Shown here: positions 46,143 to 49,100 of the stretch, in pieces
Position numbering within the stretch: the stretch's first letter is position 1
How the letters are laid out: each line of letters opens with the position of its first letter
Source of the DNA: Heterodontus francisci
Lineage: Eukaryota
Direction: 5' to 3'
Assembly: GCF_036365525.1 (NCBI RefSeq)
Contig: NC_090419.1
Location: forward strand, 11,656,001-11,720,000
DNA length: 64,000 nt
The notes under the pieces: model-generated
Database searches by the model: none
Told to the model about the DNA's origin: nothing
Seen by the model: only the letters and a program-made list of their open reading frames with translations
Translations under genes and position numbers: made by a program

Positions 46143-49100
46143 TTATTCTTCCTCCTCTGCCCTTCTGTCCAGCGAGGAAGAATCGATGCCCACCTCTTCG
46201 TAATCCTTCTCGAGTGAGGCCATGTCCTCCCGTGCGTCCTGGAACTCCCCTTCCTCCAGCCCCTCCCCCACGTACCAGTGGACAAAGGCCCGCTTGGCGT
46301 ACATCTTATCGAATTTGAGGTTGAGGCGGGTCCAAGCCAAGGAAATGGCGGTGGTGTTGCTCAGCATACAGAGGGCTCGCTGCACCTTTGCCAGATCGCC
46401 CCCTGGTACCACCGTCGGGGGCTGGTAGTTGATGCCAACCTGAGGGAGGAAGGAAAATTGTTCGGTTACAGTTGCTTAAAAAGTCGTTTCAAAATCAGAT
46501 CTGTTGACCGCCGCTTACTTTTCAGAAAGTTACGTTTCTGAGCGAGTTTGTGTCTTTCTCTGTACACCCAGCTCTGGTTATTCACTGGGCACCTCTCCCA
46601 GGTTTAAACCTTCAGTTTCCAATGGAAATGAGGCTGCATTCAGGAGCGAATTCCTTCTTAATTACAGCTTCTCCAAAGAGGCCTTGAGTTGTCAGGAAGG
46701 CCTTTCCTGGTTTCAAGGCAGGACTTACCCTGGGACATTCAGGCTTCAGTCAAGGAGTGAATCTGAGAGCATTCCACCTCAACCCTCAGAGGGAGCTGGT
46801 CTTTGGGCCAGGAATGGGGAAGGTCTGTTCCATTACTCTTCCTGAATGGAGAAACAACTTTTGACTGGGACTGAAGAGAATGTTGCTCATTATGAGATGC
46901 GATTCCCACAATCCATGTTTCCCCAGGGCCCCATGGATTGGACACAAAAGCCACACTTACCTTGAACCCAGTCGGGCACCAATCAACAAACTGGATCGAG
47001 CGCTTGCTCTTGATGGTGGCGATGGAGGCGTTGACATCCTTGGGCACCACGTCTCCTCGGTACAGCATGCAGCACGCCATGTACTTGCCCTGGCGGGGGT
47101 CGCACTTCACCATCTGGTTGGCTGGCTCAAAGCATGCGTTGGTGATCTGCGCCACCGACAGTTGCTCGTGGTAAGCCTTCTCGGCCGAAATAGTGGGCGC
47201 GAAGGTTACCAGTGGGAAGTGAATTCGGGGATAGGGGACCAGGTTGGTTTGGAACTCAGTCAGGTCCACGTTGAGGGCACCGTCGAACCGCAGCGACGCC
47301 GTAATGGACGACACTACCTGTCCAATGAGACGGTTGAGGTTGGTGTAGGTCGGTCGCTCAATGTCAAGGTTACGCCGACATATGTCGTAAATGGCCTCAT
47401 TGTCCACCATGAAGGCGCAGTCAGAGTGCTCGAGGGTGCAGTGGGTGACGAGTACGGCGTTGTACGGCTCGACCACCGCGGTGGAAATCTGCGGCGCGGG
47501 GTAAACGGAAAACTCCAGTTTGGATTTCTTGCCGTAGTCGACGGAGAGTCTCTCCATCAGGAGGGAAGTAAAACCTGAGCCGGTCCCACCCCCGAAACTG
47601 TGGAAGATGAGGAAACCCTGCAGTCCTGTACACTGGTCAGCCTGTGGGTAAATAACACACGCACAACCCATTAAAATGGAGCAGGAGCCTCCTGCTGAGA
47701 GGGCGCAATGGGAGCTGGTGAGATGGAGCAGTGGGAGCCTGGGGGATGCAGTAATGGACCTTGTGGAGGAGGCAGTGGGGAACAAGGGGGAAGCAGCTCG
47801 GAGAGGATTTATGTTCGAGGCCTGGAGTTGGGAAGGGGGTGCAGGGCCAGCCAGGGAGTGCGAATTGCAGGTTGCACAGGAAATCAAAATTGCTTGAGAA
47901 AGAATTCTAAAATACGCTAATTTGTTTCCAGATTGAGAATTAAGTCCTCCATTTATAACCACTCTATAATTCTTGTGAAATCGGTGTAATTTCTGTGATT
48001 CTGTGGGTGCGATCATTCCCCGAAATGAAGTGATAACTGATTCATCCCGAATTATTATCGTTGGGAATGCGAGGCGGGAAATCTCGGCACACCAAACTAA
48101 CAGAACCTACCAGCTTCCGTATGCGATCCAAGACCAGATCCACAATCTCCTTGCCGATGGAACAGTGACCCCGTGCATAGTTATTAGCCGCATCCTCCTT
48201 GCCGGTGATGAGCTGCTCGGGGTGAAAGAGTTGTCGGTAGGTGCCGGTCCGGACCTCATCTGGGGACAGGGAAGGAGAAGTTAAAATCATGAGCACACAA
48301 CATTCAGGCCATGTTTCAATGAGTGTATTGAGAGCACTGACTGAGCAACCCATCAACAATCACTCCTCTTACCAACCACAGTGGGCTCCAGATCTATAAA
48401 CACGGCTCGGGGAACGTGTTTGCCCGCCCCCGTCTCACTGAAGAAAGTGTTGAAGGAGTCATCGCCACCCCCGATGCTCTGGTCACTAGGCATCTGTCCA
48501 TCCGGCTGGATCCCATGCTCCAGGCAATACAGCTCCCAGCAAGCGTTACCGATCTGCACACCGGCCTGGCCAATATGGATTGAAATACACTCACGCTAAA
48601 GGGGGAAGAACAGGTGATTATTTACAGATGAAGAGGCAATGTTTTCGACAGTCGGTCTGGTCCTGGAAGAAGAAGGGTGTGTGGGCAGCAACACATCCCG
48701 CTGCAGTCCCCTATGGATCCCATCCGTTCCGCATTGATCCTCCCATCCATCGGACACTCTGTCCCTGGAGATTCCCCAGGTCTCGGAAATTCCCGATCTC
48801 TGCGCCCCCCACCCCCCAGTCCATTCCTTGTGGATCACTGGAATCCTGAATCACCAGCACCAGCCCCCTCCCCCCCCCGACTACCGTGACTCCTGTAAAC
48901 ACCCTGCAGATCTCCCCTCCACCTGTTGACCCCCATTTCCTGGCAGATTCTTACTACCTGTAGACATTATCGTCCCTGTGTCCTCCCCTCCGCCGGAACA
49001 CTTCCCTCTCCGTGCTAATCCCCAATTCCTGTGCATCTACTGCTCAACATCTCTGAGGAACTCTCCGTATTTCTTCACCGTTGCACATTCCCTTTTCTCT

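What the first reader, a model, noticed from the sequence alone, without database searches (positions are those of the whole stretch)
48473..48490. Naturally encoded K40Q alpha-tubulin; twin genes differ only in the K40 loop
Seen: copy A1 encodes MPSDQSIGG (CAG, Gln40, at 48481-48479), copy A2 MPIDKTIGG (AAG at 61191-61189) and gene [10 protein letters not shown] (56090-56088). A1 and A2 are near-identical even in introns, and their translated exons differ only at residues 38, 40 and 41. Known: K40 is the luminal site acetylated by ATAT1 and deacetylated by HDAC6/SIRT2, and K40Q is the standard experimental acetyl-mimic. Inference: the array may hard-wire alternative K40-loop states into paralogs, a genetically encoded part of the tubulin code. 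Localized gene conversion or relaxed constraint in this variable loop are alternatives.
Basis: partly seen in the sequence, partly recalled or inferred. Interest (0 to 1): 0.8.

Follow-up and report, generated by a model that had tools for sequence, protein, structure and literature searches.

The report
Shark tubulin array lacking lysine 40
Seven intact copies of a shark-and-skate-specific alpha-tubulin gene carry glutamine instead of the acetylated lysine 40, most likely a tolerated change spread by gene duplication rather than a selected acetylation mimic, because skates lost the same lysine to serine.

Summary
A1 encodes Gln40 and differs from A2 only at residues 38, 40 and 41. The window is the edge of an inverted tandem array of A/B gene pairs. 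Seven of 9 A genes carry Q40, 2 carry the IDKT loop, and all 7 B genes keep K40. The Q40 genes are intact and under strong purifying selection (1 amino-acid against 21 silent variants), so this is not an assembly error or pseudogene. They belong to an elasmobranch-specific alpha-tubulin family. The acetyl-mimic reading is weak. Skates independently lost K40 to serine, a divergent subfamily has arginine, and Q is one base from the lysine codon. The loop's change rate is compatible with neutrality. Natural Q40 is already published for Plasmodium, where reverting it had no effect, and a clingfish array also has it. ATAT1 exons and K40 canonical tubulins are present. Best reading: one K40Q mutation in a tolerant loop, spread by concerted evolution. 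Selection for a non-modifiable isotype stays open. Expression and tissue are untested.

The parts
48479..48481 (-). A1 codon 40, CAG (Gln)
   Evidence: same codon in 7 of 9 A genes
48476..48487 (-). A1 codons 38-41, loop haplotype S-D-Q-S
49570..49577 (-). A1 TATA box
   Evidence: sequence; pattern found in all 16 array genes on C49
49608..49612 (-). A1 CCAAT box
   Evidence: sequence
49510..49512 (-). A1 exon 1 coding part (ATG only)
48373..48595 (-). A1 exon 2 (residues 2-75, holds the K40 loop)
   Evidence: GT-AG borders
48111..48259 (-). A1 exon 3
46961..47641 (-). A1 exon 4 (residues 126-352)
   Evidence: Pfam Tubulin and Tubulin_C
46143..46439 (-). A1 exon 5 (residues 353-450 and stop); the intron before it is absent from the canonical alpha-tubulin genes of this genome; tail ends in four glutamates with no terminal Tyr
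46066..46071 (-). A1 polyadenylation signal AATAAA
   Evidence: sequence
53489..56610 (-). gene B, intact, 451 aa, loop S-D-K-S (K40 at 56090-56088)
58856..62217 (-). gene A2, intact, 450 aa, loop I-D-K-T (K40 at 61191-61189)
44470..50025 (.). duplicated unit around A1, 97.6% identical to 57190-62719

Best explanation
A1 is an intact member of an amplified, elasmobranch-specific alpha-tubulin array whose Gln40 most likely arose once as a tolerated point mutation in the flexible luminal loop and was likely spread to 7 of 9 A genes by unequal crossing-over and gene conversion, not selected as an acetyl mimic. Shown: intact genes, purifying selection on the protein, loop-restricted amino-acid change, sequence exchange between copies, independent loss of K40 to other residues in relatives. 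Follows from known chemistry: the Q40 protein cannot be acetylated or methylated at residue 40, so microtubules built from this array would be a mix of modifiable (B, A2-type) and non-modifiable subunits. Inferred: single origin on an S41 loop shared with B, near-neutral spread, and expression of the genes.
For: All 25 complete family models (9 A, 7 B, 9 in a second cluster) are free of stops with GT-AG borders. Among the 7 Q40 copies: 1 non-synonymous against 21 synonymous variants, pN/pS 0.015, binomial P 2e-12; intron and synonymous divergence both 2.5%. Outside codons 36-41 about 74 neutral amino-acid changes are expected in A genes and 2 are seen; inside, 1.15 are expected and 3-4 seen (P 0.11 for 3, 0.03 for 4; P 0.30 and 0.13 for the whole loop 37-47), so the loop evolves at about the neutral rate. 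Q is one of six amino acids one base from AAG. Exchange between copies: 11 of 27 silent A/B differences are shared across types, one A copy has B residues 128 and 187, and intron trees disagree. Skate S40 is a separate clade whose sister has K40. Sites 38 and 41 change 4 and 6 times on the family tree against a mean of 0.7 (one poorly aligned partial inflates each by one). Q40K reversion in Plasmodium berghei had no detected effect (PMC12795560, passages). K40Q or K40R knock-ins have mild effects in worm (PMC11216746) and fly (PMC5665452).
Against: K40 is kept in 7 of 7 B genes, 9 of 9 second-cluster genes and 22 of 30 database loops, so the site is not free everywhere. Only 1 of 21 amino-acid A/B differences crosses between types against 11 of 27 silent ones (Fisher P 0.006; CpG homoplasy not excluded), which suggests A and B identities are maintained. 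Skate S40 needs two base changes and is shared by two genera. The loop count (3-4) is above the neutral expectation (1.15). The test has no power at codon 40 itself: only 0.15 neutral changes are expected among the Q copies. K40Q does have measurable effects in flies (cold-stable microtubules, PMC5665452).
Confidence: 0.52

Rival explanations
1. Selection favours a non-modifiable residue 40 in one subtype of the array: loss of the lysine (to Q, S, L or R) sets the share of subunits that ATAT1, HDAC6 or SETD2 can act on in a specialised microtubule, and the identity of the replacement matters little.
For: K40 is lost independently in the shark A genes (Q) and a skate clade (S, two genera), each time beside K40-retaining paralogs in the same array. 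The divergent subfamily has R40 in 4 of its 13 database loops read and K40 in 9. ATAT1 exons are present, so the site can be modified in this species. The A/B pair is kept 1:1 through the array and amino-acid differences rarely cross.
Against: Loop change rate does not differ clearly from neutral. Residues 38 and 41 vary more than 40. Two of 9 A genes keep K40. One skate clade member (Rhinoraja P0231) keeps K40. No expression data.
Confidence: 0.28
2. One reading: Gln40 is selected as a hard-wired mimic of acetyl-lysine that makes microtubules constitutively resilient.
For: K40Q is the standard mimic and was viable where K40R was not in Toxoplasma (PMC4863603, passages) and stabilised fly microtubules in the cold (PMC5665452). 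The proposed partners E55 and H283 are retained in A1. Q40 recurs in nature: Plasmodium, a clingfish array and a sea-cucumber protein (P0297). It holds 7 of 9 A genes.
Against: No Gln in 30 loops of the same subfamily from other sources; skates use Ser, which is no mimic. One-base accessibility from AAG. ATAT1 is not lost, unlike rodent Plasmodium. Q40K reversion was silent in P. berghei, and the same paper found only minor effects of K40A and K40Q in Toxoplasma. The 7 copies are one event, not seven.
Confidence: 0.15
3. Assembly error or decaying pseudogenes.
For: The array is repeat-rich and contig C1300 is a 100% redundant copy of 27.3 kb of it, so the assembly is imperfect here. No read-level or RNA confirmation was obtained.
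Against: Seven copies that differ from each other by about 2.5% in introns all carry CAG; all frames, splice sites, TATA, CCAAT and poly(A) signals are intact; pN/pS 0.015.
Confidence: 0.04

Closest known systems
Plasmodium alpha-tubulins with natural Q40 (PMC12795560)
   Same: Genetically encoded Gln40 beside a K40 paralog (alpha-2 against alpha-1 in human-infecting species); the mimic idea was proposed and tested there.
   Different: Rodent Plasmodium lost alphaTAT and changed the whole loop; here ATAT1 exons remain, the loop is otherwise near canonical, and the gene is one of many tandem copies in a vertebrate.
Skate members of the same family (Amblyraja, Leucoraja, Rhinoraja; e.g. XP_032885929.1, XP_032891370.1, XP_055487593.1)
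   Same: Same family residues (C108, S109, V190, C193, T389, K397, L413, Q419, D420), tail without terminal Tyr, many copies, K40 and non-K40 subtypes side by side.
   Different: The non-K40 subtype has Ser (once Leu), arose separately and is not the orthologue of the shark A genes on the tree.
Clingfish (Gouania willdenowi) alpha-tubulin copies, e.g. XP_028300583.1
   Same: Multi-copy vertebrate alpha-tubulins with Q40 (22 of 22 listed records whose loop could be read; 4 more had no readable loop; records overlap between RefSeq and UniRef).
   Different: Canonical-type body and tail ending in Tyr; loop more diverged; outside the elasmobranch family.
Canonical vertebrate TUBA1/TUBA3-type alpha-tubulins
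   Same: About 89% identity to a canonical fish protein; first three introns shared; K60, E55, H283, K394 kept.
   Different: Canonical genes of this genome keep K40 (7 of 7), lack the intron after codon 352 (6 of 6 readable) and end in Tyr (6 of 6 tails read).
Engineered K40Q knock-ins (fly, worm, Toxoplasma)
   Same: Same substitution; expected loss of anti-acetyl-K40 staining.
   Different: Made in a canonical background; here it sits with T41S and about 45 other family differences.

Membership tests
alpha-tubulin | Tubulin GTPase and Tubulin_C domains | tested here: met
   Pfam PF00091 and PF03953 above cut-off
alpha-tubulin | about 450 aa, high identity to named alpha-tubulins, MREC start | tested here: met
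   450 aa; exon 4 is 92-96% identical to named alpha chains; 89% overall
canonical TUBA1/TUBA3-type isotype | K40, C-terminal Tyr, three-intron gene | tested here: not met
   Q40, tail ends in glutamates, fourth intron
elasmobranch-specific alpha-tubulin family (defined here from database proteins) | shared residues C108, S109, V190, C193, T389, K397, L413, Q419, D420 | tested here: met
   each held by 55-59 of the 56-59 family sequences covering the site
elasmobranch-specific alpha-tubulin family (defined here from database proteins) | one clade apart from canonical outgroups | tested here: inconclusive
   long shared branch (0.068) in a FastTree of residues 46-440, but printed support near that node is unreliable; the IQ-TREE run timed out
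functional (protein-coding, constrained) gene | intact frame, splice sites, promoter elements, pN/pS far below 1 | tested here: met
functional (protein-coding, constrained) gene | transcript or peptide detected | not tested
   no reads were laid on the gene; expression remains open
genetically encoded acetyl mimic | Gln specifically retained among relatives | tested here: not met
   0 of 30 database loops of the subfamily have Gln; S and L occur instead; close shark species were not available
genetically encoded acetyl mimic | selection on codon 40 | tested here: inconclusive
   no power: 0.15 neutral changes expected; loop rate near neutral
genetically encoded acetyl mimic | behaves like acetylated tubulin biophysically | not testable with these tools
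   needs purified protein
Plasmodium-type compensation for alphaTAT loss | ATAT1 absent from the genome | tested here: not met
   two PF05301 exon matches above cut-off on C29; full gene not reconstructed

The most novel reading that the evidence does not exclude
Sharks and skates carry an undescribed, amplified alpha-tubulin family in which selection has repeatedly built a K40-less subtype (Gln in this shark, Ser in skates, Arg in a divergent branch) and keeps it in fixed tandem pairs with K40-bearing genes, setting by gene dosage the fraction of acetylatable subunits in a specialised microtubule, possibly of germ cells. A1 and A2, which differ only at 38, 40 and 41, would be a natural in-vivo K40 experiment in a vertebrate.
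Probability: 0.22. Interest if true: 0.7.

Novelty: new variant of a known kind. Interest (0 to 1): 0.4.

Why it matters
What K40 acetylation does in vivo is still disputed. A vertebrate gene family that has lost K40 several times, with near-identical paralogs differing only in the loop, gives ready-made natural variants (Q, S, R, K) to test whether Gln mimics acetylation or merely removes the site. The family itself, with a tail lacking Tyr, altered outer-surface residues and many copies, was not found in the papers searched. If the loss is neutral, the value is modest: one more natural Q40 and a warning that anti-acetyl-tubulin staining may under-report stable microtubules in some elasmobranch cells.

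Tried and rejected
Sequencing runs: 24 listed, no RNA holder listed; this is no evidence either way, and no reads were laid, so read-level and RNA checks are open. First homologue search was crowded by fused gene models; two better-aimed searches followed. Cluster look-ups list at most 15 members: 15 of the 36 members of the main family cluster were seen, so further residue-40 states may exist. C1300 as extra copies: rejected, it is 100% identical to C49:11751019-11778312; its 2 Q40 copies were dropped from all counts. Compensation for ATAT1 loss: rejected. Orthology of shark Q40 and skate S40 genes: not supported. Sex-chromosome palindrome idea: the inverted array suggested it, but the neighbour gene is of the MITF/TFE family and the shark X is reported homologous to human chromosome 12 (bioRxiv 2022.10.17.512540, passages); no support, not tested by depth. 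Protein tree by IQ-TREE timed out; FastTree used. Left out of that tree: fused or broken models (P0119, P0120, P0273, P0276, P0277, P0280, P0282, P0375), short partials, near-duplicate records and P0236/P0240. First exons of the 9 second-cluster genes were not found by my pattern and not pursued. Literature searches with no relevant hit for this family or a vertebrate natural Q40; the library lacks most subscription papers. Earlier scan notes: none. No fold was run: the loop is largely unresolved even in cryo-EM (PMC6535015, passages).

Full report
Observation. Gene models on the minus strand give three intact five-exon alpha-tubulin genes: A1 (450 aa, loop SDQS), B (451 aa, SDKS) and A2 (450 aa, IDKT), all with GT-AG introns. 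A1 and A2 differ by 7 silent and 3 amino-acid codons (38, 40, 41), and their 5.56-kb units are 97.6% identical.

Context. The window lies at G000:C49:11656001-11720000. Exon 2 has 40 matches in the genome (45 candidates, 40 scored). The array continues to about 11.812 Mb as alternating A and B genes. It is inverted near 11.7245 Mb, where two half B genes (exons 4-5 only) face each other. After removing contig C1300, a 100% redundant copy, the array has 9 A genes (7 Q40, 2 IDKT) and 7 complete B genes (all K40). A second cluster at 11.95-12.05 Mb has 9 complete genes, all SDKT, plus degenerate pieces. All 16 array genes have a first exon, TATA, CCAAT and a poly(A) signal. Seven canonical alpha-tubulin genes read on other contigs all have K40; one more gene on C463 has R40. 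ATAT1 exons are present on C29.

Are the Q40 genes functional? Among the 7 copies there are 21 silent variants and 1 amino-acid variant (M36T in one copy): pN/pS 0.015, P 2e-12 against neutrality. Introns and silent sites both differ by 2.5%. This excludes a one-off assembly error and argues against pseudogenes. Transcription itself was not tested.

How the loop states arose. Over codons 10-42 the Q loop differs from B essentially by the one K40Q base. The K-type A copies match the second cluster at 40-41 and add S38I. Two histories fit: a tract from B gave S41 and then K40Q occurred, or the K-type copies were converted from the second cluster. Either needs one exchange and two point mutations, so Q40 is one event copied seven times (inference). 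Exchange is visible elsewhere: one A copy carries B residues 128 and 187, intron distances group copies differently in different introns, and 11 of 27 silent A/B differences are shared against 1 of 21 amino-acid ones.

Is the loop special? Yes in position, unclear in cause. New amino-acid changes in A genes cluster at 36, 38 and 40 (post-hoc scan P 4e-4 to 9e-4). The rest of the gene has 2 changes where 74 are expected under neutrality. The loop has 3-4 where 1.15 are expected (P 0.11 and 0.03), and no excess if the whole loop 37-47 is used (P 0.30 and 0.13). That is what local relaxation predicts, with a weak lean towards positive selection. Constraint on Q40 itself cannot be tested: only 0.15 neutral hits are expected.

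Relatives. The closest named proteins are all from sharks, skates and rays. Those named Heterodontus share the same C-terminal tail, so the source is likely a shark of that kind. They share family residues and a tail without terminal Tyr. In the subfamily with a canonical-like loop, 30 loops read in database proteins give 22 K, 7 S, 1 L and no Q (mostly skates, predicted models, two fused). The S40 genes of Amblyraja and Leucoraja form one clade (support 0.87) whose sister from Rhinoraja has K40 (0.94), apart from the shark A genes (tree built without the loop; deep nodes weak). A divergent subfamily has R40 in 4 and K40 in 9 of 13 loops read. So K40 is lost repeatedly in this family, to different residues. 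Outside it, Q40 occurs in a multi-copy clingfish set and one sea-cucumber protein.

Literature (passages seen through term look-ups, not whole texts; supplements not read). PMC12795560: Q40 is natural in Plasmodium alpha-2 and in both isotypes of rodent species that lost alphaTAT; Q40K reversion changed nothing detected. PMC4863603: K40Q viable and K40R not in Toxoplasma; the later paper found only minor effects. PMC5665452: fly K40Q microtubules are more cold-stable, animals normal and fertile. PMC11216746: worm K40Q and K40R have small effects. PMC10707541 and PMC6535015: K40-E55-H283 model; loop mostly unresolved. K40 methylation by SETD2 was seen in a search listing only. PMC5769580 added little. 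Five searches found no description of this family or of a natural vertebrate Q40; the library is incomplete.

Mechanism and odds. Most likely (0.52): a tolerated mutation in a flexible loop, spread by concerted evolution, that removes the modification site from 7 of 25 family genes. Next (0.28): selection for a non-modifiable subtype, whatever the residue. Then (0.15): selection for Gln as a mimic. Artefact or decay: 0.04. That high-copy tubulin arrays often serve germ cells is recalled knowledge, not a result here.

Verdict. A real and well-supported feature, new for this lineage as far as searched, but the concept is known and the mimic claim is not supported. New variant of a known kind; interest 0.4.

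Noticed in passing
window 16022-16525 (+): Exon of a MITF/TFEB/TFEC/TFE3-family gene (Pfam PF15951, E 6e-15), about 30 kb from the array edge, among long minisatellites.
   Followed up: partly
G000:C49 near 11610123 (+), locus L086: Open frame that looks like a PRA1-family (PRAF2-like) exon; label recalled, not tested.
   Followed up: no
G000:C49:11700471-11750000: The array is an imperfect palindrome (arms about 96% identical) centred near 11.7245 Mb, with two 5'-truncated B genes head to head.
   Followed up: partly
window 57013-57015 and 43754-43966: A second exon-1-like element (ATG plus splice donor) lies about 400 bases upstream of B's first exon; a 92% copy of that region sits beyond A1 with no B gene after it.
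   Followed up: no
L058 (G000:C463:234718-234940); P0283, P0284, P0286, P0305, P0323: A strongly divergent branch of the family has a basic, rewritten K40 loop with natural R40 in several sharks and a ray, and a changed M-loop region.
   Followed up: partly
window 46143-46439: Family-wide changes on the C-terminal helices (T389, K397, L413, Q419, D420) and a tail with two arginines and no terminal Tyr; may alter motor or MAP binding and tyrosination (inference).
   Followed up: no
G000:C49:11776977 and 11789453 (B copies): N101K in two B copies, at a residue recalled as near the nucleotide site; possibly damaging.
   Followed up: no
G000:C49:11731708 (A copy, L009): M36T in one Q40 copy, the only amino-acid variant among Q40 genes.
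   Followed up: yes
G000:C1300: Whole 27,294-base contig is an exact reverse-complement duplicate of part of C49.
   Followed up: yes
P0298, P0312 and cluster members: Clingfish Gouania willdenowi has many alpha-tubulin copies with Q40; a second vertebrate case worth its own look.
   Followed up: partly
window 389-43429: Dense minisatellites (periods 12-72; a 27-base unit in 168 copies at 32848-37382); long open frames there are repeat read-through.
   Followed up: no
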